The notes under the pieces: generated by a model
The model's input: the letters and a program-made list of their open reading frames with translations, nothing else
Told to the model about the DNA's origin: nothing
The model's database searches: none
Source of the DNA: Mobula hypostoma
Taxonomy: Eukaryota
Length of the DNA: 64,000 bases
Direction: 5' to 3'
Assembly (NCBI RefSeq): GCF_963921235.1
Contig: NC_086108.1
Span: 48,114,001 to 48,178,000, forward strand
Program-made: the position numbers and the translations under genes
Part shown: one piece after another, positions 1,844 to 54,740 of the stretch
Position numbering within the stretch: position 1 is the first letter of the stretch
Layout of the letters: each line of letters opens with the position of its first letter

Positions 1844-3745
1844 GCACAGGATAGGTACATTCCAACGAAGAGGAAGTATTCTAAAGGCAGGATGATGCAA
1901 CTGTGGCTGACAAGGGAAGTCAAAGCTAACATAAAAGCAAAAGAGGGCATATAATAGAGCAAAAATTTGTGGGAAGTTAGAGGATTAGGAAATTTTTAAA
2001 AGCCAACAGAAGGCAACGAGAAAAAAAACATAAGGGAGGACATTGCATCTGTGTTCACTGTGGGAGCCACTAACAGTATGCCAGAAGTTACTAGGGAGAA
2101 GATGCTTGGAAGACTAAAAGATCTGAAGATAGATAAGTAATCTGGATGATGTACTATATCCCAAGGTTCTATAAGAGGCAGTGAAGAGATTGTGAAGGCA
2201 TTAGTAATGATCGTTCAGGAATCACTAGATCCTGGAGTAGTTCTGGAGGATTGGAAAATTGCAAATGTTGCTCTACTTTTCATGGGAGGGAGGCAAAAGA
2301 AAGGACACTATTGGCCATTTAGCCCGATCTCTGTGGTTGGGAAGATGTTGGAGTCAATTGTTAAAGATGTTGTTTCAGGGTACTTGGAGGCACATGACAA
2401 AATAGGCCAAAGTCAGCATGGTTTCCTCAAGAGAAAATCTTGCCTGACAAATATTTTGGAATTCTTTGAAGAAAGAGCAAGCATGATAGACAGAGGAGAA
2501 TCAATCAGTGGATGTTGTGTACTTTGATTTTCAGAAGGCCTTTGGCAAGGTGCCACACATGATGCTGCAAAACATAAGAGCCCAGGGTATTACAGGAAAG
2601 ATACTAGCATGAATAAAGCATTGGCAGATTGGCAGGAGGCAAAGAGTGGGAATAAAGGGATCATTTTTGGATTGGCTGCTGGTAACTACTAGTTTTCCAC
2701 AGGGGTCTGTGCTGGGACTGTTTTTTTGTGTGTTGTATGTCAATGATAGGATGATAGATTTGAGCCAAGGTTGTAGACGTAGTTGAGTGGAGGGGCAGGT
2801 AGGTTTTAGGAAACAGAAAGGCTGCAGAAGGATTTGGACAGATTAGGTGAATGGGTAAAGAGAAAGCAGATGGAATATAGTGCCAGGAAGTGTATGGTCA
2901 TGCACTTTGTTAGAAGGAATAAAAGTATACTGTTTTCTAAATGGGGAGGGAATTCAAAAAATCTGAGGTGCAGGATTACCTAAAGGTTAATTTGTAGATT
3001 GAATTGGTGGTGAAAAAGGCAAATGCAATGTTAGCGTTCATTTCAAGAGGACTAGAATACAAAAGCATGGATGCAATGCTGAGGCTGTATAAGGCACTGG
3101 TGAGGCCTCACTTGGAGCATTGTGAGCAGTTTTGGGGCCCCTTATCTAAGACAGGATACAGGATGTGCTGACATTGGAGAGGATTCAGAGGAGGTTCGCG
3201 AGAATGATTCTGGGAATGCAGTGGTTATCGTGTGAGCAGCAATTGAAGGCACTGGGCCTGTACTTGCTGGAATTTAGAAGAATGAATGGGGATCTCATTG
3301 AAACCTACCAAATGTTGAAAGGCCTAGATTCCCAACTTTTTTTTATGCCGTGGACCAATACCATAATGCAAGGGCATGGACCCCAAGTTGGGATCCCCTG
3401 TCCCTGATAGAGTGGATGTGAAGAATGTATTTCCTTTTGGGGGAGTCTAGGACCAGAGGGCACAGCCTGAAGATGGAGGGATGTCTAAGAGCAAAGATGA
3501 GGAGGAATTTCTTTAGCCAGACAGTGGTCAATCTGTGGAATTCATTGCCACAGGTGGCTGTGGAGGCCAGGTCACTGAGTGCACTTAAGGTGGTTGATAG
3601 GTTCTTGACTAGTCAGGGAGCGAGAGGTTTGGGGAGAAAGCAGGAGAATGAAGTTGAGTGGGAAGTGGATTAGCCATAATGAAACGGTGGTGTAGACGCA
3701 ATGGGCTGAATGGTCTGGTTCTTCTGCTATGTCTTATTGTCTTAG
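1844..3745 (+). mobile_element. CR1 LINE, 5'-truncated and internally deleted, disrupted ORF2 plus 3' UTR
   Basis: RT peptides EDWKIANV, SQHGFLKRKSCLTNILEFFEE, LERIQRRFARMI, RRNFFSQTVVNLWNSLP; frameshifts; 3' tail gtcttattgtctta. Confidence 0.9.
3329..3400. mobile_element. ~80-bp hAT/Charlie-like MITE inserted in the CR1 (left TIR clipped)
   Basis: ttcccaac...gttgggatcccctg inverted ends; interrupts the CR1 at ggcctagat|agagtggatgtg; homologous to 63764-63843. Confidence 0.65.
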
Positions 3746-12120: not shown

Positions 12121-13089
12121 GGTATATGTCCCATATTAAAATGCACCACAATATTACAAGACAAAGTATTGTTTTGCGTCAAATGTATTCTGGTACCATT
12201 TAACAGTTTTATGCTAATAAAAGATTTAATTGTAGTAGCATGTTACAACCAATAAATATTTAGATATTTTGAGCAAACCTTGTGAGACCAACCACCACCC
12301 TCCTGAGATTTCCACACCACTGTGGCCGCCCTCTCCTTTTAAGATGCACTATGCAATGCGACTCAGTGCCACATGAAATATGGTGCTGGTCTGAGTGCAT
12401 TAAATAGGTTTGAAGTATCACACTAGGATGAGGACAGAAATGGTTTTTGCACAGGCTGATATATTCTTCTGCACCAGATTCCCCGAATGATGCAAATTAA
12501 TTAAATTATTGGGACTGCTTGAATACAAGATCTTATAAATAATTCACTGATATACTCTAAGTGATGGTGAGATAACTGGTTTAGCTTCAAAATAAGTATC
12601 CCCATCTTGGATAAGCTGTAATCTGCTTCAGGAATGTGTAATATAATGCAATGTTCTAGACCAATAATAAAGGTCAGCTGCTTAGCCCTTTTTGCCAAGT
12701 GTAATGTGTGTGATTATATGTATAATAATATTGTATTAGCTCCATTTCAGGAATGTTCCATTTACAAATACTTGTGGTTGTATTCTGGAACATTATGTTA
12801 TTATTATGAATAATTGTGAGTTTAAAATTTCATTCATTACCTCCAATTTGGATGAGGTACTTAATACTTATAAACAAAGTGCAAACATAACCTCATGGTG
12901 AGATTTTTAGGAGCATTCATTTCAATGTTGAAGCAATTGTGGTGATCATGCAAAATTAGCTGGACCTGAAGGAGATGAGAACCAGCTTTTTTGCCACGAG
13001 GATCTCATTTTGGCTCATGGTTGGTGTTCTTGTTTTAGTTTGCCTTTGCCAACTTCAAGAGTATGTTACCAAGATACCACCAGCACATT

Positions 13090-13350
13090 GCCTGTCCCAC
13101 CAGGACTATTGACCATTGCCACACACTCATTAGAGATACCTGCTGATCCATTCCCCCGTACGTATTTTTTGCAAGTCAATCAGCCAGGCTGTGCTCCTTC
13201 TCCCTGTAAACAGAAACTGAAGCAAGAGTATTCAATGCAGAAGGTGTACTGTGCTGGTCTGAAGAGGTAGCTTCTATGTGACTGTAGTGGCTCTGTAGAC
13301 TGGTTCATTTTCAAAAAGACTCAGCAGCCAATCGCAATAAGTATGTCAGC
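13090..13350 (+). mobile_element. Rex1/Babar-type LINE, left part (split by the Gypsy insertion)
   Basis: EN-RT linker motifs (QAVLLLP..KQKLKQE, CWSEE, VDW..FK) that resume at 16128 with tcatcagcaaatgtgaagaggactgtgtacc. Confidence 0.65.
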
Positions 13351-13585
13351 TGTTATGTTTTGTACACCAAAACATTAAAAACTAATTTCAATAAAAAGAC
13401 ATAGTCTAACTTTGTGTTTGTTTACTTTAAGTGAGGTGCACACATATCACATGGTTGTGTCATAATGAACGTATTTCACTTATTTTTAGATGTAACTTAT
13501 AATGAATTATTTAACCAAACAATGCTTAATAAACAACACATTTACAAGATTACTCAAGTATTACTGAAATATTAAATTCACAACA
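13351..13585 (-). repeat. 3' LTR of the Gypsy element
   Basis: TGTTATGTTTTGT...ATTAAATTCACAACA, adjacent to the PPT; homologous to 15888-16127. Confidence 0.85.
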
Positions 13586-13904
13586 CTCCTTCCTGCTTAG
13601 CTATGAACTCCAACTCAATATAGAAGACATCTCAACTATACACACAGTATACAATATAATACAACGACTGTACTGAAATCCACTGCACAGCAGATTTTAA
13701 ACTGCCCCATTCAGGCCTAAAGATTTATTTGCTGTGGAGGATTTTTTACTCTTGTGGGATAACGTGTTTCCTAACAAGGGAGGTCACCCTGCTTGGTAGG
13801 TGAGACTTGAGGCTATGAAAGCAGTCTCGGGGTCTGGAGCCTCCTCCGTGGTGGTTTTGGGAGTTGACTCTGAGACTGCAGGAAGTGGTTCTGACAGTTC
13901 CGAA

Positions 13905-14436
13905 TACCTTTCTTTTTCTCCTAGTTTGTGCATCTTGATCTTGGGAAGGTTCGTTCGTTCACTGGAGTACTATCTTATTAAACCTCCTATTGATTCCTTT
14001 ATGATCTGATCTCTCCTCTTGGTTTCCACAACATCATCCCCTGTTTTCATATCTCCATTGACCCCTTTCTTTTTGGCTTTCCATGCATCCAGCTGGGCTT
14101 TGGTCCTTTGCATCAACTTTTACAAGCAGCTTTTTGTCTCCCACCTGAAGTTCATGCAATAAACAGAATGTATACAGAGTAGATTCTGGTTCTTTATACT
14201 TAAAAAAAAAAAGCCAAATGCTTGCAACTTTCCTAAAGCTCATTGATTTCTCTTCCAACTTAAAACCAAGCCTCATTTCACAAGTAACTGCCTGATTAAC
14301 AAATCTGAAGCTTTCTCAGATACGTTGCCTACAAAAATTGTGGTAGTCAGACCACTGCTTTTGTCACTTTCATCTTCCTTTAAATAACATGTTCCTTCCT
14401 TGACCCAACCAGATGCAAAGAGGTTGGCACCAACAA
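13905..14436 (-). pseudogene. RBM25: Processed (intronless) RBM25 fragment covering the RRM, disabled
   Basis: Across frameshifts and stops: LVPT...SGLTTTIFVGNVSEKASDLLIRQLLVK*GLVLSWKRNQ*ALGKLQAFGF / YKEPESTL..LLHELQVGDKKLLVKVDAK / TKAQLDAWKAKKK...ETKRRDQIIKESIGGLIR*YSSE, matching the RBM25 N-terminal RRM as recalled. Confidence 0.88.
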
Positions 14437-15887
14437 ATGATTACCCTCTTGGGCAATGGTTCATGGTGTACAACATGGAGACAGTTGTGGCATCATCCAG
14501 TACCCTGCTTAATTTTCTTCCAGTTGGCCTTATTGCCAGCGATGTAGTATGCAAATAGTGGATGAATCTCTAATCATGTTGTGGTAGTCTCAGCCAGTCA
14601 CAGCCCTGCAATGCTGACTGTCCTGTTTTTACCACATACAAGCCCAATATGGTTTGTTGGTAGCTGTATTACACAGTTACAGATGTCATTCCTACAGGAA
14701 TTGTATTTTCTCCCATGTAAATTCTTAGTTAGATACAGTATCAGCAGGCTGCAGTTTAGTATCTTTGAGATGCCAATGGAATTAATTTTGTGGATTAACT
14801 GATACAGCCGTACCAGAGTCCAATTCTATTCTGATTAATTTGCAGTTCACTTCTGGTGTAAGTCATATTGCTTGTCTATTATTAATTTTCACACTGTAAA
14901 TCTCGTGGCTACACAGTCCCATGTCCCTCTCATCATTATCAGATTTTTCATCAACAGCATGCAGATTAGTGCACTTTTTTGAAATTGCAACTTAAAAAAA
15001 TATTTTTTCCTTATATAGTCCATTTATTTTTGTCTGCCTGACATGCTCTTTGTATATGTCCTACTACTTTTTGAATTTTCTGCAAGTTTTGCCTTTTAAT
15101 CTGAATTAATCTGGTGTGCATTGTCATCTGCCACAACGGTAAAACAATTTGTTCAGCCAGGCCGGTTTCCTGTTTCGATGTTGCAATTTTGTTCATGCTC
15201 ACTTTCATTCCTGACTGCAACACAATTGCAGTTTCCATTGATAGTTATTTCAACTGCTTTTTTAACTCTAAATTGTGCTATAGTTAGGAGGATGTTTTCT
15301 TGTAAGATTCCACAAACTATGTGATCTCTCGGTGCACTATTAAGTCCATCATTGAACTGACAATACTCAGGCAATCTAGTCAATTCAGGCATGTATGTTG
15401 GAGTGGACCCCCCTCCTTTTGATTCCACATATGAAATCTAAGTGTTCTGCAATCAACAATGCCTTTGGATTTAAATGTTCCTGCATTACCTTCAAGATAT
15501 CATTTCAGCTGGTTTCATTGGAACAGTTAAATTTTGAAGTAAACTGTATGCCTTTAATTCCAATGCACTCAGTAAAATTTGCATTTGTTTCTCATCGGTG
15601 ATTTCAAATGCTTCAAAATACTGCTCAATTTGCTCAGTATACAAAATGTTGTGGAATCAAATGTGTCAATCTTTTCAATAAAGCCAGCCTTTTCTGCTCT
15701 TTTATTTATTTATGATTATTATCACCCAGTGCTCACTGTTAATGAACCTGTGAATTCTTCCATTTTCTTCCGTTCCTGTCTCTGCATGTACTACACTGTT
15801 TTTCTTTTACTGCACTTTAAAAGAAAACACTCAAATGTTTTGCTGTGCTTCACCTTGGGTTCATTTTAAAAACTACATTGTCGCCAC

Positions 15888-16127
15888 TGTTATGTTTTAT
15901 AAACCCAAAACTCTGAACTATTTAAAAGAAAGACGGGGACCAGGGATGCAAGTCAAACTTGGCGTGTTTTTATTTTAAACAAGGTGCATATATCACATGG
16001 TAGTGTCATGATGTATGCAGTTCACTTAGTTTTACAGATAGCACGTAATGAATTAGTTGAACAAAGAATGCTTAACAACATATTTACCAGATTACTCAAA
16101 TATTATTGAAATATTAAATACACTACA
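15888..16127 (-). repeat. 5' LTR of the Gypsy element
   Basis: TGTTATGTTTTAT...ATTAAATACACTACA, adjacent to the PBS; homologous to 13351-13585. Confidence 0.85.
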
Positions 16128-17915
16128 TCATCAGCAAATGTGAAGAGGACTGTGTACCAAAGAGATCAATCCAGATTCCAGATTACCAGATACCATGGAT
16201 CAACCAAGAGATCCAATCCTTACTGCAGTCCATGTCTGCAACATTCATATTCAGTGACATTGACCTATGTAAAACTATTGGGAATGCCAAGAGACAATGT
16301 TAGTCCAAAATAGAGTTCAGACCAGTCATCAGTTGTGGTGGGGCTTACATCTTACAATGAGCTACTAAATGAAGTCCTGGAGAGTGAACTGTGGATAGAA
16401 TCTGACCCATACCTTGTCCTTTAGATCCCACACAGATCAGTTTGTGGAGGCATTTGCAGACATTTTAAACCTATTCCTACTTCAGTCTGAGGTTCCCACC
16501 TTTAAGAAGACAACTATCATATTGGTGTCAAAGAAAAATAAGGTAACATGTTTTGAAGACTACAGTCCAGTAGCTCTTCCATCTGCTATCATAAAGTGCT
16601 TTGCAAGACTAGTCATGGTACACATCAACTCCAACCTCCCAGGCAGTCTCAAACTACTGCTGAATTAGGTCTATGGTCAACAGCATCTGCCTGGGTTTAC
16701 ACTCATCTCTGGAGCATCTGGATAATAAAGATATCCAAGTCGACTATTATTTATCGATTGCAGCTCTGCCCTCAATGCTATAGAAGTGATAGGATGCTAC
16801 AGCACAGAAGCGTACATTTTGGCCCATTTACTGTATGCTGAATTCCAAGTAAACTCGTCTCCAAACTCCTAGACCCGGGACTCAACACTTCCCTGTGCAA
16901 CTGGATACTCGACTTCCTGACCAACAGATTGATATCAGTAAGGATAGGCATTAACACTTCCCACCACAATTATACTCGGACTGGTGCCCCTGGGGGATGT
17001 GTCCTCAGCCCCCTACTCTACTCCCTATACACTCACCACAGTATGGCCAGGTTCTGCTGCGGCTCCATCTGCAGGATTGCAGATGACACTACTGTAGTTG
17101 GATGAAACTCAGTACAGGAAGGAGAAAGAGAGCCCAGTGGCATGGTGTCTCAACAATAGCCTTTCCTTCAATAGCAGTTTAAAAAAAACAAGAGCTAGTC
17201 ATTGATTCAGTAAGTGAGATGAAGCACATGCCCCTGTTTGATTGATGGTTCCAATGTAGAAACCTTAGCTCGTCCTGGTCCAACCACGTAGATGCTGTGG
17301 CCAAGAAAGTTCTCCAGTGCCTGTACTTCAGAAGGCTAGGGAAATTCAACATGTCCCCATGGACCCTTAGCAATCTTTATCAATGTAGCACAGAAAGCAT
17401 CCTGTCTGGATGCTTCATGGCTTGGTATAGCAACTGCACTGCCCCAGACAGTGGGAATCTGCAGAGTTGTGCATTACAGAATCCAGCCCCCCTCCATGGG
17501 CTCTGCCTACACTTGCTGCTGTCTTGGAAGAGCAGCCAACATAATCAAAGATCCCTTCCACCCTGGATATTCTTTCCTTTCCACCTTCCATCACAATGAA
17601 AATTCAAAAACTTGAAAGTACATGCAACGAGGATGAAGGATAGCTTCCATTCCCACTATTGTAAGAATTTTGAATGGACCTCTTATACAGCATCATGCAC
17701 TCTTGACCTCACAATCTACATGAGCATGGCCTTGCATCTTACTGTCTCTCCGCACAGCACTTTCTGTAATTGTAGCATTATATTCTGCATTCTGTTACTG
17801 GTTTTACCTTGTCCCTCAAAGCACTGTTGTAATAAACTAATCTGTATGAACAGTATGCAAGACAAGTTTTTAACTGTACTTCGGTACATGAGACAATGTG
17901 ACAACTAATTTACCA
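16128..17915 (+). mobile_element. Rex1/Babar-type LINE, right part (decayed RT and 3' UTR)
   Basis: [63 protein letters not shown]; 3' tail ttttaactgtacttcggtacatgagacaat. Confidence 0.8.
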
Positions 17916-36994: not shown

Positions 36995-39548
36995 TGTATT
37001 ATGACCACCTAATGGGGACCGAGAACTGAAGGAGCAAATTTGTAAGGAGCTAGCAGATATTTGTAGTAAGCACAAGGTTGTGATTGTGGGAGATTTTAAT
37101 TTTCTACACATAGACTGGGAAGCCCATTCTGTAAAAGGGCTGGATGGCTTGGAGTTTGTCAAATGTGTGCAAGATAATTTTTTGCAGCAATACATAGAGG
37201 TGCCAACTAGAGAAGGGGCAGTGTTGGATCTCCTGTTAGGGAATGAGATAGGTCAGGTGATGAAGGTTTGTGTTGGGGAGCATTTCGGGTCCAGTGATCA
37301 CAATGCCATTAGTTTCAATATAATTATGGAGAAGGAAAGGACTGGACCCAGGGTTGAGATTTTTGATTGGGGAAAGGCTAACTTTGAGGAGATGCGAAAG
37401 GATTTAGAAGGAGTGGATTGGGGCAATTTGTTTTATGGGAAGGATGTAATAGAGAAATGGAGGTCATTTAAAGGTGAAATTTTGAGGGTACAGGATCTTT
37501 ATGTTTGTGTTAGGTTGAAAGGAAAGGTTAAAAGTTTGAGAGAGCCATGGTTTTCAAGGGATATTGGAAACTTGGTTTGGAAAAAGAGAGGGATCTACAA
37601 TAAATATAGGCAGCTTGGAGTTAATGAGGTGCTTGAGGAATATAAAGAATGTAAAAAGAATCTTGAGAAAGAAATTAGAAAAGCTAAAAAAAGATACGAG
37701 GCTGCTCTGGCAAGTAAAGTGAAAATAAATCCCAAGGGTTTCTACAGTTATATTAATAACAAAAAGATAGTGAGAGATAAAATTGGTCCCTTAGAGAATC
37801 AGAGTGGATGGCTATGTGCAGAGCCAAAAGAGATGGGGGAGATTTTGAACAATTTCTTTTCTTCGGTATTCACTAAGGAGAAGGATATTGAATTGTGTAA
37901 GGTAAAGGAAACAAGAAGAGTATTTATGGAAAATATGATGATTAAAACAGAGGAAGTACTGGCGCTTTTAAGGAATATAAAAGTGGATGAGTCTCCGGGT
38001 CCGGACAAGATATTCCCTAGGACCTTGAGGGAAGTTAGTGGAAATAACAGGGGCTCTGACAGAAATATTTCAAATGTCATTAGAAATGGGGATGGTGCTG
38101 GAGGATTGGCATATTGCTGATGTGGTTCTATTGTTTAAAGAGGGTTCTAAGAGTAAATCTAGCATTTATTGGCCTGTGAGTTTGACGCCAGTGGTGGGTA
38201 AATTGATGGAAAGTATTCTTAGAGATAGTATATATAATTATCTGGATAGACAGGGTCTGATTAGGAACAGGATTTGTGCGTGGCAGGTCATGTTTGACAA
38301 ACCTTATTGAATTTTTTGAAGAGGTTACTAGGAAAGTTGACGAGGGTAAAGCAGTGGATGTTGTCTATATGGACTTCAGTAAGGCCTTTGACAAGATTCC
38401 ACATGGAAGGTTAGTTCGGAAGGTTCAATCATTAGGCATTAATATTGAAGTAGTAAAATGGATTCAGCAGTGGCTGGATGGGAGACGCCAGAGAGTAGTG
38501 GTGGATAACTGTGTGTCAGATTGGAGGACGGCGTCTAGCGGTGTGCCTCAGGGATCTGTACTGGGTCCAATGTTGTTTGTCATATATATTAATGATCTGG
38601 ATGATGGGGTGGTAAATTGGATTAGTAAGTATGCAGATGATACTAAGATAGGTGGCGTTGTGGATAATGAAGTAGGTTTTCAAAGCTTGCAGAGAGATTT
38701 AGACCACTTAGAAGAGTGGGCTGAAAGGTAGCAGATAGAGTTTAATGCTGAAAAATGTGAAGTGCTACATTTTGGTAGGACTAATCAAAATAGGACATAC
38801 ATGGTAAATGGTAGGGCATTGAAGAATGCATTAGAACAGAGGGATCTAGGAATAATGGTGCATAGTTCCCTGAAGGTGGAATCTCATGTGGATAGGGTGG
38901 TGAAGAAAGCTTTTGGTATGCTGACCTTTACCAATCAGAGCATTGAGTATAGGAGTTGGGATGTAATGTTGAAATGGTACAAGGCATTGGTGAGGCCAAA
39001 TTTGGAGTATTGTGTACAGTTCTGGTCACCGAATTATAGGAAAGATGTCAATAAAATTGAGAGAGTACAGAGGAGATTTACTAAAATGTTGCCTGGGTTT
39101 CATCTCCTAAGTTACAGAGAAAGGTTGAACAAGTTAGGTCTTTATTCTTTGGAGCATAGAAGGTTGAGGGGGGAATTGATAGAGGTATTTAAAATTATGA
39201 GGGGGTTAGAGAGAGTTGATATGGATAGGCTTTTTCCATTGAGAGTAGGGGAGATTCAAATAAGAGGGCATGAGTTGAGAGTTAAAGGGCAAAAGTTTAA
39301 GGGTAACATGAGGGGGAACTTTTTTACTCAGAGAGTGGTAGCTGTTTGGAACGAGCTTCCAGCAGAAGCAGTTGAGGCAGGTTCGATGTTGTCATTTAAA
39401 GTTAAATTGGATAGCTATATGGACAGGAAAGGAATGGAGGGTTATGGGCTGAGTGCAGGTCGGTGGGACTAGGATAGGGTAAGAGTTCGGCACGGACTAG
39501 AAGGGCTGAGGTGGCCTGTTTCCATGCTGTAATTGTTATATATGGTTA
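36995..39548 (+). mobile_element. CR1 LINE, young-looking, 5'-truncated ORF2 (partial APE endonuclease plus RT) and 3' UTR
   Basis: IVGDFN, LDLLL, GSSDHNAI (EN); YMDFSKAFDK, SGVPQGSVLGP, YADDTK (RT); long frames 37080-38120, 38276-38731 and 38762-39472 broken by few lesions. Confidence 0.95.
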
Positions 39549-46099: not shown

Positions 46100-49000
46100 T
46101 AATTATAATCTTCCCGGCCTTTGGTGATGAATTGGTAAGTGCAACCTGCTGTAGGCCCATGTTGGGGAACTGGAGTTGTTATTGCATGACCTTTGCATCA
46201 TTTAGGAGGGTGAGGAGTAGATAGACAGGAGTCGCGTAGAGCCAGTAACACCCAAGTTACAGGAGACAAGTAGCTGGGTGACTGTCAGGAGAGGGAAGGA
46301 GAATAGGCAGTCAGTGTAGACCACCCATTTGGCTGTTTCCTTCAATAACAGGAACATTATTTTAGATAGTGTGTATGGTGGGGGTTAATGACATATCAGT
46401 GAAAAGCCCAAGTGGGCAGATCCTGGGTATTGAGTCTGGCTCTTTGGCACAAAAGAAAAGGAGTGAGAAGAGGTGGACAATAATGATAGGGGATTCATTG
46501 GCTAAGGGAGCAGGCAGGAGGTTCTGTGGATGAGAATGAGACTCTTGGATAGTATGTAGCCTCTCAGGTGCCAGGGTCAGGGATGTCTTGGATCGAGTCT
46601 ATCGCATTCTTAAGGGGGAGGGTGAGTAGCAAGAGGTTATGGTACACATTAGCACCAGGGACATCGGCAGGAGAAGTAATGAGAAGTTAAAAGACAGGGC
46701 CTCCAGGGAGGTGATCTCAGGATTATGACGTGCCACATGCTAATAAGACAAGAAATAGGAAGATAATGCGATCTAACACCTGGCTAAGCACATGGTGCAG
46801 GAGGGAGAGCTTCAGGTTTTTGGACCATTGGGCTCTCTTCCAGGATAGGTGGGATCTGTACAAATGGGATGGTTTGCACCTGAACTGGAAGGGACCAATA
46901 TCCTTGCAGACAGGTTTGCTATTGCTGCTTAGGGGGTTTTAAACTAGAGTTGTTGGGGGGGGCGGGAGGGGGAACTGGAGTGGCAAGACAATAAATGGAG
47001 TGGCTGTGGTGAAAGTAGATGTTAAGATAATTAGCAAAAATAGAAACAAAAAGATTGAGCATGGTGGTATTAATATCTTGAGGTGCATCTATTTCAGTGC
47101 AAGGAGTACTGTAGGTTAGACAGATGAACTTAGAACATGGATCCGTACACAGAATTATGATATTGAAGTTATTACTGTCATTTGGTTCAGGACTGAGCCA
47201 GGGCTGGCAGCAAAATGTTCTGGCGTTCTGCTATTTCAGACATGATAGAGGTGGAGATATTAAAGGGAAAATGTCACAGCAATGCTCAGAGAGGATATAC
47301 TGAAGGGCTTATACACTGAGGTAATATGGGTGGAACTGAGGAACGAAAAAGGGACGGCAATATTGTCATCGTACCTTTCCATGCTCTGTGGTGCATGAGG
47401 CAGCAACCTTGCAGTTTCTTTCGCATTTGTCTGCTTTTACCAGGCCGAGTTGCTCGCTCGATGCTCAGCCCAGCACAGATGGAAAGTGTGCAAGGAGCCG
47501 TCCGGATTTGAGGTCGGGACCACTTGCCCCTGAGTCCAGTGCGGATGCCATTTCACCACCTGCCAGCTTGATGACAGTGTTAATGGGACGGTATTATAGG
47601 CTCCCAATGGTATGTGAGATTTAGAGGAGCAAGTTTGTAGAGAGGTAGCAGACAGTTGCAGGAAATATAAAGCTGTGGTAGTAGGTGATTTTAACTTCCC
47701 CTTATTAACTGGGACTCCCATACTGTAAAAGGACTGGTTGGGAACGAGGTTGTCAAATGTGTTCAGGAACGTTTCCTTAATCAATATATAGGTGGCCCAG
47801 CAAGCGAGAATGCGATATTTGATCTACTCTTACAGATACAGATAATGATACAGGATAGGTGACAGAAAGTAGTGTATGGGAACATTTTGGATCCATTGAT
47901 TATAATTCCATTACTTTCAAGATGATTATGGAGAAAAATAGGAATGATCCTCAGGTTAAGATTATAAATTGGAGAAAGGCCATTTTTGATAGCATCAGAA
48001 ATGATCTGGCAGGCGTGAATTAGGATAGGTTATTTTCCAGCAAATGGATGCTTGGAAAGTGGATGGCTGGCCTTCAAAAGTGAATGTTGAGAGTACAGAA
48101 TTTGTATGTTTCTGTTAGAATAAAAGACAAGGCCAACAGGTTTATGGAACTTTGGTTATCGAGGCATATTGAGGTCCTATATAAAAAAAAGGAGGTGCAT
48201 CTCAGCGGTAGGCAGTTAGGATAAAATGAGGCACTTGAGTGTAAGAAATGCCAGGGAACACTGAAGAGAGAAATCAGGAGGACATGAGGTTGCCCTGATA
48301 GACAAGGTGAAAGAATTCCAAAAGCTTCTGTGGATATATTAAGGAGCAAAGGATAGCTAGGGACAAAATTGGTCCTTTTTAAGATCAGCGTGGTCATCTA
48401 TGAAGGAGCTGAAAGAGGTAGAGAGATGTTAAATGATGTTTTTTTACTTGGAAGACAGACACAGTGTCTATAGAATTGAGAAAAAGGGAGTGGTGTGGTC
48501 TGGACCATCTCCAGATTACAGAAGAGGATGTACTCATTGTCTTGAGGCTAATTAGGGTGGATAAATCCCCAAGATCAACAAACGGTCCCTTTGGACCTTG
48601 TGGGAGGCTAATGCAGAAATTGTAGTAGCCCTGACAGAGGTATTTAAAGCATGGTTCACCATGGATGAGGTGCTGGAGAACTGGAGGTGAGCAAGTAACC
48701 TTGTTCAAGAAAGTTTGTAAGAATAGGCCAGCAAATTATAAACTGGTGCACATGATGTCAAGAGTGAGTTATAGGGCCTGATTATTAATAGTCACCATGG
48801 TCTTGTGCTTGGCAGGTCATGTCTAAGCAAACTTTTCAAGAAAGTTACCAGGAAAGTTGATGAAGGGAAGGCAGTGGACATTGTCTACAGGGTCTTGACC
48901 AAGTCCTTTCACAAGGACCTGCTTGGAAGGCTGCTCCAGAAGGTTAAGTTACATGGCATTTGTGATGAAGTAGTAAATTGGATTCAACACTGGCTGAGCA

Positions 49001-49740
49001 GGAGAAGCCAGAGAGTGGTAGTAGGTGGTTGTCTCTCTGATTGGAGGCCAATAGCCAGTGGTGTGTCACAGGGATTGGTGTTGGGTCTATTGCTGTTTAT
49101 CATCTATATTAATGATTTAGATAAGAATGTGGTAAACTATATCAGCAAATATGTGGATAACTCCAAGATGCGGGGCGGCGGGGGGGGGGGGGAGGTGCAT
49201 AGTGGACAGTGAAGAAGGCTATCTAAGGTTACTGCAGGATGTGGACCAGCTGGAAATGGACTGAAAAATGGTAGGTGGAACGTAATGCTGACAAGAATGA
49301 GGAGTGGCAGTTTGGGAGGACACAGCAGGGTAAAACCTACACAGTGAGTGGTAGGGCATGGAAGTTTGTGGTAGAACAAAGGGACCTCAGAATATAGATG
49401 CATAATTCCTTGAACGTGGCATCACAGATAGATAGGTTTGTAAAGAAAGTTTTTGGCATATTGGCCTTCTTAAATCAGGGCATTGAGTTTAATATGTTTT
49501 GTTGAAGTTGTATAAGATGTTGGTGAGGCAAAACAAAGAGAATTGTGTGTAGCTCTGGTCACCTACCCACAGGAAAGATATCAATAAGAGTGCAGAGCAA
49601 ATTTACATAGATGTTGTTGTAACCTGAGAACTTGATTTGTGGGGATAGGTTGAATAGGTTTGGACTTTTATTTCCTGGAACACAGGAGAATGAGGGGAGA
49701 TCTTGTCAAAGTATCCAAAATTATGAGGGATCTAGATAAA
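46100..49740 (+). mobile_element. Long decayed CR1 LINE with ORF1 SGNH esterase, EN and RT remnants
   Basis: IGDSL..G..RRFCG; WCRRESFRFLDHW..DLYKWDGLHLNWKG (ORF1); VVGDFNFP (EN); SGVSQGLVLG (RT). Confidence 0.85.
47366..47570 (-). mobile_element. tRNA-derived SINE inserted in the CR1 EN region
   Basis: Minus strand GCTGGCAGG TGGTGAAATGG (A box) ... GACCTCAAATCC (B-box-like); flanks acggcaatattg / atgacagtgtta differ only by transitions (aged TSD). Confidence 0.65.
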
Positions 49741-50250
49741 AACATGAGAAAATCCACAGATGCTGGAAATCCAAGCAACATGCACAAAATGCTGGAGGAA
49801 CTCAGCAAGTCAGGCATCGGCTATGGAAAAAAGTAAACAGTCGATGTTTCAGGCTGAGACCCTTCATCAGGACTGGAAATAAAAGATGAGGTCAGAGCAA
49901 GAAGGGAGGGGAGGAGGAAATAGAAGGTGATAAGTGATGGGTGAAACCAGGAAGGAGGGGTGAAGTAAAGAGCTGGCAAGTTGATTAGTGAAAGAGATAA
50001 AGGGCTGGAGGAGGGGAAATCTGATAGGAGAGGGTAGAAGGCCATGGAAGAAGAGAAAGAACACCAGAAGTAGGCGATCAGCAGGTAAGGAGATGAGGTG
50101 AAAGAGGGAAACAGGAATGGAGCAATGGTGAAGGAGGGAGGTTGTAATTACCAGAAGTTCAAGAAATCGATATTCGTGCCATCAGGTTGGAGGTTACCAA
50201 GAGGACATCTCATTAGCTCTGGAATGAAAAGCCTCATCCTGACAGCAGGT
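49740..50250 (-). mobile_element. Penelope pLTR plus internally deleted ORF end
   Basis: Collinear with 8340-8810, then jumps to gacatctc...gaatgaaaagcctcatcctga (cf. 9495-9532). Confidence 0.8.
49838..49875 (-). ncRNA. Minimal hammerhead ribozyme motif in pLTR, core intact
   Basis: Minus strand cagtc CTGATGA agggtctcagcct GAAAC ATC gactg; AUC triplet. Confidence 0.6.
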
Positions 50251-51019
50251 ACATTACATTAAGGCTAGCTAAAATTCTTTAAAGTGTAAGTAGGTTAACT
50301 TTTGGAAGATGGGTGATACAAAGTTCACAGGGATCCAGTACAGAGAATGGTTTGAGTCCTGTGGTAAAATAGTTGTAGTCATATTGAAAAGTGGAGTGGC
50401 ATGCAAATACTACTGCTATTTTCTTGTCTTTGGCTGGGATGATGATGAATAAGGATTTTGTGATAGGGATGCTCTTGAATGCCAAGGGGAGTGGCTGGGC
50501 AGTCTTTTATCAGAGATGGTCTCTGCCATTACTTGAAGGCAGTGTTATTTGCCAGTTAGAACTCACTTGGCTATTGTCTCAGTCTTGCGGTATATTGGGA
50601 TGAAACTTTAGATTTTCTGAGGAATTGCAATGGAATTGAGCATTGTTCAAATATCAGTGATCTGTTATGATGGAAATAAAGTTGCTGATGAAGCAGTTGA
50701 ATTTGTTTACACCAAGACACTACCTGAGGAGTGCTGCAATGATGTCCGAGAGCTGATCACAGTTATACCATCCAACCTGTGCTGTGTGACGGAGTTGAGC
50801 ATTATCCATACAACATTTTTTTCCATATGACCAGCGGCCAATCCGGACATTGGAAGTTTGGAGAGAGGGAACTTCAATCAGGTCCACTGCCCGAGGATAA
50901 AATACAGCACTGGGTCATGGCAGCGAGAAAGATGTTTGACCAGTGTGTAAACTGGATATCAGAAGTTTGGAGAAAGGGGACTTCAATCAGGTCCACTGCT
51001 CAAGGATAATCAGTGTTTG

Positions 51020-54000
51020 AGATTGATTAGTAAGAGCAAATTTAAGGAAGGCAGGGGCAAGTGCAGCAGCCATCATCGCAGCGGCCATCGTCTGAGTGGT
51101 GATCTTGAGGCTTTAGAACTTCGAACCTTCAGCGAAGAGAGGCTTCACTCAGAGAAAGCAAAGGAAAGAAAAGCTCAAGTTTTTTTCTTTCTTCTCTTTA
51201 TATCTGCTCAGCTAAGACAGTAGCAATGCTAGGCAGGATAATTGAATGCTCTTCTTACAGGATGTGGGAAGGCAGCGAAACCTCCTGTGGCCCTGACCAC
51301 TAGAGCTACAAAAAGTGCATCCAGCTGCAGCTTCTAACAAACCACATTAAGGAGTTGGAGCTGGAAATGGATGAAATCAAGGTCATTTAGGAGGCTGAAG
51401 GGGTGATAGATAGGACGTATGGAGAGGTAGTTACACCCAAGGTGCAGGACACAGGAAACTGGGTGACAGTCAGGAAGGGGAACGGGGTTAAGGAGCCAGT
51501 ACAGAGTACCCCTGTGGCCATCCCACTCAACAACAGGTATATCACTTTGGGCACTGTTGGGGACAATGACCTGTAGAGGAAAGTCACAGTGGTCGGGTCT
51601 CTGGCATTGATTTTGCCTCCGTGACTCAAAAGGGAAAGGGGGTAAAAAGGTACGCTGTGGTGACAGGGATTTTGTTAGGGGGATGGACCGGAAGCTCTGT
51701 TGGCGAGAACAAGCTTCCCGGATGGGATCCTGCCTCCCAGGTGGCAGGGTCCAGGATATCTCAGGTCAAGTCCTCAGCTTTCTCAAGTGGGAAGGTGATC
51801 GGCCAGAAGTCATGGTCCGTGTAGATACCAATAACATTGGTTGGATGAGCGACGAGGTTCTGCATAGGGAGTTCAGAGAGTTAGGTGCTAAGTTAAAAGG
51901 CAGGACCTCCAGGGTTGTGATCTCAGGATTACCACCTGTGCCACGTGCCAGTGAGGCTGGAAGTAGGAAGATTATACAGTTTAATATGTGGCCAAGGAGC
52001 TGGTGTAGGAGGGAGGGTATAATAGTTTTGAATCATTGGGCTCTATTCCAGTGGAAGGTGGGCCCTGTACAGAAGGGACAGTTTGCACCTGAACTGGAAG
52101 GAGACTAATATCCTAGCAGGAAGATTTGTTCATACTGCACAGTGGGATTTAAACTAGAGTTGCAGGCTAGGGGGAGTGGTGGGAACCAGAGTGGCAGAAC
52201 AGTTAGTGGAGAAGTTGTGGAGGCAGATGTTGGTAAGATCTCAGACAAAGTTAGGAATCAGAAGGTTGGGAATGGTGTGACTGGTGTCCTGAGCTGCCTG
52301 TATTTCAGTATAAGAGTATCATAGGAAAGGCGGATGATAGTGCTGAAGATGGGGTAGCTCATTTACAAATAGAGGCAATGTGTAGTGAGGAGAGGCTGTT
52401 GATAGGGCAAAATTGCAATCAACAGGATGATTTGCAAAGTAAAAGGCAGGCAAAATGGAAAAGGGTGAATACAGGACTGAAGGTGTTGTATTTGAATGCA
52501 TGCAGTATATGGAATAAGGTAGATGAGCTTGCAGCACAGTTGAAGATTGACAGGTGTGATGCAGTAGGCATCACTGAATCATGGATGAAAGATTATAGCT
52601 GAGAGCTTAATGTCCAAGGATGCACATTGTATCAAAAGGACAGGCAGGAAGGCAGAGAGGTGGCATAACTCTGTCAGTTAAAAATGAAATCAAATCATGA
52701 GGAAGAAATGACATAGAGTCGGAAGACGTTGAATCATTGTGGATAGAGCTAAGGAACTGCAAGGCTAAAAAGACCCTAATGGGAGTTTTGTACAGACCCC
52801 CAAACAGTAGTAAGGATGTGGCCTGAAAATTAAAGTGGGAGATAGAAAATGCATGCGAAAAGGACAGTGTTACAATAGTCATGGGGATTTCAATATGCAG
52901 GTAGATTGGGAAAATCAGGTTGGTGCTGGATTATACGAGGGGAATTTCTAGATTGCCTATGAGATGGCCTTTTAGGGCAGCTCGTGGTTGAGCCCACGAG
53001 AGGATCAGCTATTCTGGATTGGGTGTTGTGCAATGAGCCAGAATTGTTTAGAGAGCTTAAAAAAAAGGAACCCTCAGAGGCAAGTACTCATAAATATGAT
53101 CAAATTCATCCTGAAATTTGAGAAGAAGTTGAAGTCAGATATATCAGTATTACAGTAGAGTAAAGGGAATTATAGAGCCAAGAAAGAGGAGTTGGCCAGA
53201 ATTGATTGGAAAAATTCACTGGCAGGGATGATGGCAGAGCAGCAATGGCTGGAATTTCTTTGAGCAATTCGGAAGGCTTAGGATATATTACATCCCAAAG
53301 AGGAAGAAGTATTCTCAAGGAAAGATGACATAACCGTGGCTAACAAGAGAAGTCAAAACCAATTATCAACCAACTAGGTTCTGGAATGGTTCCAGAAGAC
53401 TGGATAATTACAAATGTCACTCCACTCTTCAGGGAGGGAGAGAGTCAGAAGAAAGGAAACTGTAGGCCAGTTAGTCTGACCTCAGTGGTTGGGAAGAAAT
53501 GGGAGTCGATTGTTAAGGATGAGGTCTCAGGGTACTTGAAGGCACATGATAAAATAGACTGTAGTCAGCATGGTTTCCTCAAGGGAAAATCTTGCCTGAC
53601 AAATCTGTTGGAATTTTTTGAAGAAATAACAAGCAGGATAGACAAAGGAGAATTCGTTGATGTTGTGTATTTGGATTTTCAGAAGGTCTTTGACAAGGAG
53701 CGACACTTAAGGCTGCTTAGCAAGCTATGAGCCCGTGGTATTACAGGAAAGAATCTTGCACAAATAAAGCAATGGCTGATCGGCAGGAAGCAGAATGGGA
53801 ATAAAGGGAGCCTTTTCTGACTGGCTGCCAGTGACTAGTGGTGTTCCACAGGGGTCTGTGCTGGGACTGATTCTTTTTTATGTTATACGTCAATGATGGA
53901 ATTGATGGCTTTGTTGCAATGTTTGCAGACGATATGAAGATTGTTTGAGAGGCAGATAGTTCTGAGGAAGTAGAGAGGCAGCAGAAGGACTGAGACAAAT

Positions 54001-54740
54001 TAGGAGAATGGGCAAAGGAATGAAGGATAGAATACAGTGTCAGGAAGTGTATAGTCATACACTAATAGAAGAAATGAAAGGGTTGACTATTTTCTAAATG
54101 GAGAGAAAACACAAAAAAGCAAGGAACAAAAGGATTTTGAAGTCCTTGTGCAGGATTCCCTAAAGGTTAATTTGCAGGTTGAGTCTGTGGTGAGGAAGGC
54201 AAATGCAATATTTGCATTCATTTCAAGAGGACTAGAATATAAAAGCAAGGACATGATGCTGAAACTTTATAAAACACTTGTGAGGCCTTACATGGAGTAT
54301 TGTGAGCAGGTTTAAGTGCCTTATCTTAGAAAAGATGTGCTGAAGTTGGAGAGGATTCAAAGGAGGTTCACGAAAATATTTCCATGATTGAATACTTGTC
54401 ATATAAAGAGCATTTGATGGCTCTGGGCCTGTATTCACTGGAAATGAGAAGAATGAGAGGTGATCTCATTGAAACCTATCAAATGGTGAAAGGCCTTGAT
54501 AGAGTAGATGTGGAGAATATGTTTCCTATGATGGGAGAGTCTAAGACCAGAGGACACAGCCTCAGAATAGAGAAGTGTCCATTTGGAATGGAGATGTGGA
54601 GGAATTTCTTTAGCCAGAGAATGGTGAATCTGTGGAATTCTTTGTCACAGGCAGCTGTGGAGGCCAAGCCTTTATGTATATTTAAGGCAAAGGTTGATAG
54701 ATTCTTGATTGGATACATGAAAAAGGCGGGAGATTGAGTC
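51020..54740 (+). mobile_element. Composite CR1: 5' UTR and ORF1 esterase of one subfamily joined at ~52337 to EN-RT-3' end of another
   Basis: ORF1 CLPGGRVQD, RVVISGLPPVP, GQFAPE; two EN N-termini (52285 and 52477); RT SQHGFLKGKSCLTNLLEFFEE; internal deletion near 53360. Confidence 0.85.

What the first reader, a model, noticed from the sequence alone, without database searches (positions are those of the whole stretch)
13351..16127. Gypsy LTR retrotransposon whose pol core is replaced by a spliced RBM25 (splicing factor RRM) cDNA
Seen, in minus-strand order: 5' LTR, PBS, gag, protease (DSG), ~530 bp of RBM25 coding sequence in the same orientation, integrase C-terminal tail, PPT, 3' LTR. 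RT, RNase H and the integrase core are missing, and the RBM25 piece has no poly(A) tail or obvious TSD of its own. Established: this RRM region spans several exons in vertebrate RBM25, and LTR elements can capture host mRNA by template switching, as in retroviral oncogene transduction. Inference: a non-autonomous Gypsy family that captured and possibly amplified an RNA-binding domain downstream of gag-protease. This copy is dead (stops, frameshifts). It is the best candidate for an undescribed system in the window.
Basis: partly seen in the sequence, partly recalled or inferred. Interest (0 to 1): 0.85.

Follow-up and report, generated by a model that had tools for sequence, protein, structure and literature searches.

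The report
Jumping-gene family carrying spliced RBM25
An old, now dead jumping gene of a cartilaginous fish has its copying enzymes replaced by a spliced piece of the host splicing-factor gene RBM25 and is found at about a thousand or more places in the genome, likely by borrowing enzymes from intact relatives, with the host piece likely riding along as an unused passenger.

Summary
Confirmed. The element (16127-13351, minus strand) reads LTR-PBS-gag-protease-RBM25 cDNA-pol tail-PPT-LTR. The insert joins six exons of the host RBM25 gene (found on C1) without introns. It replaces about 3.1 kb of RT-RNase H-integrase that sibling elements still carry. Both crossovers lie in microhomologies shared by host mRNA and pol (7 and 10 nt), and the 5' one is in frame with Gag-protease. 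The same 5' junction occurs at 994 places against 2,095 for a pol-type junction; corrected estimate 2,400-3,200 copies. Copies form nested Long, intermediate and Short subfamilies (this copy is Short; the founder reached exon J), so the chimera itself kept replicating, likely in trans. No selection on RBM25 was detected: copies decay neutrally, and 8 of 8 testable fixed differences arose in the host lineage. A derived gag type was probably swapped in from helpers. The mechanism is known (Tan 2016); the scale exceeds the cases I read about. The scan has reported this family six times before from other copies in this genome.

The parts
15888..16127 (-). 5' LTR (240 bp, TG..CA)
   Evidence: shared with pol-bearing siblings
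16128..16132 (-). left copy of 5-bp target-site duplication (GATGA)
   Evidence: 5-bp duplications also in L109 (exact), L114 and L105 (4 of 5)
15876..15886 (-). primer-binding site, TGG-led, one base after the LTR (tRNA-Ser(GCU) type is recalled, not tested)
14493..15690 (-). decayed gag (with CCHC knuckle), aspartic protease (DSG at 14820-14812) and linker; one reading frame in the family
   Evidence: zf-CCHC E 0.01, L002; stop frequency 1-2% in one frame over the last 1,260 columns; gag-asp_proteas E 0.016, weak
14486..14492 (-). 5' crossover: TGCCACA shared by the element linker and the end of host RBM25 exon B; in frame
13906..14492 (-). spliced RBM25 cDNA: end of exon B (14492-14483), C (14482-14437), D (14436-14279), E (14278-14221), F (14220-14054), most of G (14053 to about 13920); RRM in D-F; Short subfamily, exons H-J largely deleted
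13717..13914 (-). C-terminal tail of the pol frame after the integrase core; begins in the purine stretch shared with host exon J (3' crossover)
13586..13598 (-). polypurine tract
13351..13585 (-). 3' LTR (235 bp)
13346..13350 (-). right copy of target-site duplication (GCTGA)

Best explanation
This is one dead copy of a high-copy Gypsy LTR-retrotransposon family whose RT-RNase H-integrase core is replaced by spliced host RBM25 mRNA, likely through two microhomology-guided template switches in a virus-like particle, and which then likely spread in trans on enzymes of pol-bearing siblings with the RBM25 piece as a likely neutral passenger. Shown: intronless exons B-J, shared junctions with 7- and 10-nt microhomology, pol-bearing siblings with the same LTR and gag, about 1,000 or more junction copies, nested deletion subfamilies, neutral decay of copies. 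Inferred: co-packaging of RBM25 mRNA and RT switching; a single capture event; trans-mobilisation; shortening by RT slippage between purine-rich repeats of the RE/RD-coding region; uptake of newer gag-protease haplotypes by recombination with co-packaged helper RNA. The founder would have encoded a Gag-protease-RBM25(RRM + RE-rich) polyprotein, but no use of it is detected.
For: Host gene on C1 with GT-AG exons; the insert skips 5 introns (about 19 kb) here and 8 (about 29 kb) in Long copies. Joints C-D, D-E and E-F appear in contigs of runs X1, X13 and X16. Pol-type siblings match the window up to 14486 and again from 13914; RT, RNase H and integrase lie between in Gypsy order. Microhomology chance 7e-4 and 2.5e-5. 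Junction 24-mer: 994 hits, pol-type 24-mer 2,095, controls 0; 11 of 29 gag-selected loci are chimeric. Nested Long, derived-Long, intermediate and Short forms. Among-copy 0-fold/4-fold divergence 1.02-1.18 in 83 copies. 20 of 21 fixed host-copy differences are synonymous. At 8 of the 8 shown in the table, organism I's contig has the element's base, and Heptranchias has the element's residue at the one replacement. Derived gag type: 35 diagnostic changes in 1,260 nt against at most 2 in 582 nt of RBM25 (p about 1e-4), and that gag type also occurs with pol in 5 loci.
Against: Trans-mobilisation and template switching are not observed directly. The founder frame is intact: in-frame 5' join, and Long-form modal indels of -3 and -138 against the host. 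The modal Short and intermediate deletions end in the same tail frame. Few changes accumulated on the masters' RBM25 part, so the selection test has low power; 13 of 21 fixed sites could not be polarised. Chimeras make up 20 of 25 resolved loci with the derived gag type against about 32% overall, which suggests some replication advantage that passenger status does not explain by itself. 15 of 36 fetched windows there were unresolved.
Confidence: 0.78

Rival explanations
1. The captured RNA gave a cis advantage to the element's RNA rather than a protein function, for example purine-rich enhancer-like sequence aiding export or packaging, or simply a shorter genome. This would explain why chimeras outnumber pol-bearing copies in the derived lineage.
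For: 20 of 25 resolved derived-gag loci are chimeric against 994:2,095 overall (Fisher p 1e-6); exons C-G are kept in all subfamilies.
Against: The most purine-rich part (exons H-J) is what was deleted. Plain pol-deletion derivatives also multiplied, with junction-to-tail distances of 0.9-1.9 kb, so shortness alone may suffice. The sample was chosen with a chimeric query.
Confidence: 0.1
2. The Gag-protease-RBM25 fusion was translated and selected while the family was active: the RRM, released by the element's protease, bound element RNA or altered host splicing.
For: In-frame 5' join inside one open Gag-PR frame; Long-form modal indels in frame; only 1 fixed replacement between host and copies; no shared stop among 35 derived gag-PR changes.
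Against: Fixed synonymous differences are host-lineage changes where testable (8 of 8). The clearest shared non-CpG changes in the insert are replacements, Y>N and G>D. Intermediate and Short forms read the exon I remnant out of the host frame. An in-frame join has a 1-in-3 prior.
Confidence: 0.09
3. A LINE-made RBM25 retrocopy inserted into, or recombined at DNA level with, one Gypsy copy, and later deletion removed pol, the poly(A) tail and the target duplication; amplification followed.
For: LINEs are abundant in the window (ORF list); DNA repair can also use microhomology.
Against: Both ends are precise replacements at microhomologies shared by mRNA and pol. The insert is an internal, sense-strand part of the coding sequence with no 3' UTR, poly(A) or own duplication, matching the template-switch signature in PMC5131818.
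Confidence: 0.03

Closest known systems
LTR-mediated retrocopies in animals (Tan et al. 2016, PMC5131818; passages and section 10 read)
   Same: Partial mRNA replacing part of the internal ORFs between two LTRs; microsimilarity at both fusion points; no poly(A) or own TSD; can retranspose as a non-autonomous element.
   Different: The secondary spread described there is small (two fly retrocopies at more than one site). Here at least 994 junction copies, about a third of the family's junction-bearing copies, with nested subfamilies and gag exchange.
Maize Bs1 (as summarised in PMC5131818 section 10)
   Same: LTR element with captured host exons; all copies share switch points.
   Different: 1-5 copies per Zea species and three parent genes; here one parent gene, a vertebrate, thousands of copies estimated.
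Retroduplicated NLR genes in pepper (Kim et al. 2017, PMC5664825; abstract only)
   Same: Host gene copies multiplied by LTR-retrotransposon retroduplication.
   Different: Plant; yields functional genes per the abstract; here a decayed fragment with no sign of function.
Acutely transforming retroviruses with gag-onc fusions (recalled)
   Same: Replication-defective genome, host cDNA in frame with gag in place of pol, helper-dependent.
   Different: Gypsy retrotransposon with no env-sized region between pol tail and LTR; germ-line amplification; no selection on the captured gene detected.
Ty3/Gypsy (Metaviridae) elements of the single-ORF 'K02A2.6-like'/Mag type (clade name recalled)
   Same: Gag and pol in one frame, PR-RT-RH-IN order in siblings, 5-bp TSD, short LTRs.
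   Different: Clade placement not tested by an RT tree; the chimera lacks RT, RH and IN core.

Membership tests
Ty3/Gypsy LTR retrotransposon | two direct LTRs with TG..CA ends, PBS, PPT, short TSD | tested here: met
Ty3/Gypsy LTR retrotransposon | pol order PR-RT-RNase H-IN (in the pol-bearing siblings) | tested here: met
   RVT_1, RT_RNaseH_2, Integrase_H2C2/rve in order in L194; rve in L184
Ty3/Gypsy LTR retrotransposon | clade placement by RT phylogeny; primer tRNA identity | not tested
   clade name and tRNA type recalled only
Autonomous element | own RT, RNase H and integrase core | tested here: not met
   about 3.1 kb replaced
LTR-mediated retrocopy (Tan 2016) | intronless partial mRNA replacing internal ORF, sense orientation | tested here: met
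LTR-mediated retrocopy (Tan 2016) | microsimilarity at both switch points beyond chance | tested here: met
   7 and 10 nt; P 7e-4 and 2.5e-5
LTR-mediated retrocopy (Tan 2016) | secondary retroposition with shared switch points | tested here: met
   994 junction hits on many contigs, different flanks and TSDs
LTR-mediated retrocopy (Tan 2016) | transcription from the LTR promoter | tested here: inconclusive
   runs are only guessed to be RNA and were laid on the host gene, not the element
LINE-made processed pseudogene | poly(A) tail, 3' end of mRNA, own TSD | tested here: not met
   insert ends inside coding exon J at a microhomology
Functional transduced gene / retrogene | purifying selection or intact expressed copy | tested here: not met
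   0-fold/4-fold 1.02-1.18; mean 1.8 stops per copy in 83 copies. Not all of the 2,400-3,200 estimated copies were seen, so a single domesticated copy is not excluded

The most novel reading that the evidence does not exclude
A natural germ-line 'transducing' Gypsy whose in-frame Gag-protease-RBM25 (RRM) fusion, or the captured RNA itself, boosted its replication, letting it outnumber its own helpers about 4 to 1 in a later lineage: a retrotransposon that co-opted a host splicing-factor domain.
Probability: 0.12. Interest if true: 0.85.

Novelty: new variant of a known kind. Interest (0 to 1): 0.5.

Why it matters
It shows that a helper-dependent LTR element carrying a host mRNA can become a major repeat family in a vertebrate germ line. 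In the cases I read about, such spread stops at a few copies. The family is a fossil record of the whole process: one capture with readable microhomologies, stepwise deletion of the captured piece, and exchange of gag with evolving helpers. It preserves the ancestral state of host RBM25 at synonymous sites. Practically, thousands of RRM-bearing fragments can inflate 'RBM25-like' gene counts and confuse read mapping in such genomes. If a replication advantage from the captured piece were shown, it would be a case of a retrotransposon using a host splicing-factor domain.

Tried and rejected
Pfam on the window's own fragments: nothing relevant. PWI family search found two other genes, recognised from recall as SRRM1-like and PRPF3-like, and missed RBM25; a protein search with the RBM25 C-terminus found it. 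RT_RNaseH search returned other, younger Gypsy families unrelated to this LTR/gag. Protein search with a fused frame found no annotated fusion protein among the 120 listed of 130 hits, lengths 134-427 only, so it is no evidence of absence. No RNA holder was listed as RNA; expression was not tested. Absence of diverged RBM25-like contigs in the rows shown for organism I is not evidence of absence. Excess of fixed 4-fold differences over private divergence (11 of 78 against 0.088) is not significant, p 0.08, and was explained by host-lineage change where testable. Third-position excess among derived gag changes (16 of 35) p 0.09: weak. The gag-PR tree is star-like and chimeras do not form one clade; no test of monophyly was made. 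Literature searches: RBM25 + retrotransposon (20 of 29 listings seen, none on this); RBM25 with shark/skate terms (15 listings, RBM25 count 0 in all); (0 papers); a ray-genome preprint has 0 mentions of RBM25 or retrocopies in its main text (its supplements are closed). Repbase and Dfam could not be searched, so the family may already be in a repeat library unannotated.

Full report
Observation. The window is C50:48,114,001-48,178,000 of a 3.48-Gb genome. On the minus strand, 16127-13351 is a 2,777-bp element with LTRs of 240 and 235 bp (20% apart, K2P 0.236), a TGG-led primer site, a purine tract and a 5-bp target duplication with one mismatch. Gag, a CCHC-like stretch and a DSG protease are present but broken. 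The window's own fragments give no useful Pfam hit; sibling copies give RRM_1 (E 5e-8) in a frame that runs on from the protease linker. A sibling frame hits RBM25 proteins. The closest protein to a fused frame is RBM25-like of the shark Heptranchias, 78%, so the host is a cartilaginous fish.

Parent gene. A search with the RBM25 C-terminus found the host gene on C1. Ten consecutive exons (A-J) were mapped, with AG and GT at all internal boundaries, and they translate without stops. The window insert is the last 10 nt of exon B, then C, D, E, F and most of G, joined without five introns (about 19 kb), 80.7% identical to the host. Contigs from three public runs, one matching the host introns exactly, show the joints C-D, D-E and E-F (the runs are only guessed to be RNA).

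What was replaced. Of 29 loci picked by gag-protease likeness alone, 11 carry RBM25. Fourteen continue into reverse transcriptase, and four are deleted or interrupted. Pol-type copies match the window from the LTR to 14486 and again from 13914. Between lie RT, RNase H and integrase in Gypsy order, 3.0-3.2 kb in the fullest copies. At the 5' crossover element and host exon B share 7 nt; at the 3' crossover pol tail and host exon J share 10 nt. Random junction pairs reach these lengths with P 7e-4 and 2.5e-5. The 5' join is in frame with a single Gag-protease-linker frame (stop frequency 1-2% against 4-22% in most windows of the other frames). The 3' join enters another frame of the pol tail. 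No poly(A), 3' UTR or own duplication is present.

Amplification. The 24-nt 5' junction occurs 994 times within two mismatches, and a pol-type junction 2,095 times; reversed controls give 0. Only 28 of 68 independently found chimeras match that pattern, which gives 2,400-3,200 copies; the first DNA search had 2,929 candidates, 40 scored. Copies fall into Long (exons B-J, modal indels -3 and -138 against the host), intermediate and Short forms. Among the 30 junction-selected loci I count 11 Short, 7 intermediate, 5 Long and 7 unresolved. Seven Long copies carry a derived motif that nearly all shorter copies share, so the forms are nested: the chimera went through successive masters. LTR pairs are equally old in chimeric (K2P 0.22-0.32, 5 copies) and pol-type (0.20-0.26, 4 copies) elements. 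Private divergence is about 9% at non-CpG sites. No young copy was seen. Diverged RBM25-like contigs in runs of organisms G and H hint that the family is shared with relatives, but the gag junction was not tested there.

Selection. Over 582 nt in 83 copies, divergence among copies at 0-fold and 4-fold sites is equal (ratio 1.02-1.18), with 1.8 stops per copy. Twenty-one sites differ between host and most copies, 20 of them synonymous. Eight of the 21 appear in the table (272 rows hidden), and at all eight organism I's contig has the element's base. Heptranchias has the element's residue at the single replacement. These are host changes since capture, not selection on the element. The clearest shared non-CpG changes in the insert are replacements. 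The test has little power, because few changes accumulated on the masters' insert.

Gag exchange. The gag-protease tree is star-like, with one supported derived clade of mostly Short and intermediate copies. Its innermost group of 10 differs from 52 pol-type copies at 35 sites in 1,260 nt (about 13 synonymous, no stop), but at no more than 2 sites in the insert (p about 1e-4). That gag type was rare in my pol samples (1 clear case). A search with it gave 40 hits: 36 fetched windows held 16 chimeric junctions (one read by eye), 5 pol-type and 15 unresolved, and 4 more hits were already known chimeras. So helpers with the derived gag exist, and the simplest reading is that the RBM25 cassette took up their 5' halves by recombination. 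Chimeras are then 20 of 25 in that lineage against about 32% overall; the query was chimeric, so this share may be biased upward.

Mechanism. Shown: spliced insert, shared microhomologous junctions, siblings with pol, high copy number, nested deletions, neutral decay. Inferred: co-packaging and double template switch, one capture, spread in trans, slippage deletions in purine-rich repeats, gag exchange with helpers. Confidence 0.78. Rivals: cis advantage of the captured RNA (0.10), selected fusion protein (0.09), LINE retrocopy plus deletion (0.03).

Comparison. The structure meets the definition of LTR-mediated retrocopies in Tan et al. 2016 (PMC5131818; passages and section 10 read). There, secondary spread is a few sites, and maize Bs1 has 1-5 copies. 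Pepper NLR retroduplication is a plant case of larger expansion (PMC5664825, abstract only). Eight literature searches and a ray-genome preprint's main text showed no description of this family; repeat libraries could not be searched. The scan's own notes hold six earlier reports of the same family from other copies in this genome (consulted after my reading was formed). Verdict: real, a new variant of a known kind, notable for scale and a readable history, with no function detected. Interest 0.5.

Noticed in passing
G000:C1:99832633-99832586 (L039): Host RBM25 has a 48-nt exon with its own ATG, absent from bony-fish proteins P0006 and P0008 but present at the start of the Heptranchias protein P0122; spliced to exon D in contigs of X1, X13 and X16.
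   Followed up: partly
L179-L218, L100, L110: The pol-type family also has plain internal-deletion derivatives: 14 of 40 copies have junction-to-tail distances of 0.9-1.9 kb, clustering near 1.0 and 1.7 kb. Two others end at the same purine motif used by the RBM25 crossover, a likely recombination hot spot.
   Followed up: partly
window 13906-13930 and L002 (C50:49.91 Mb): The window copy and L002, 1.8 Mb away on the same contig, share an extra small deletion at the 3' junction that shifts the tail frame, though they are only about 80% alike.
   Followed up: no
L051, L052, L055-L060, L065: A different, much younger Gypsy family with open frames up to 1,580 aa and integrase-like sequence upstream of RT in the same frame.
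   Followed up: no
G000:C1:99876650 and 99906403: Two LTRs of this family lie 36-66 kb upstream of the first mapped RBM25 coding exon.
   Followed up: no
window 12930-13270 (+): Decayed frames that resemble a PIF/Harbinger transposase fragment (recalled resemblance, untested) just beyond the 3' LTR.
   Followed up: no
window 16130-17100, 37005-39469, 48775-54734: Decayed LINE reverse-transcriptase and endonuclease pieces of CR1/Rex type (recalled) make up the longer ORFs of the window.
   Followed up: no
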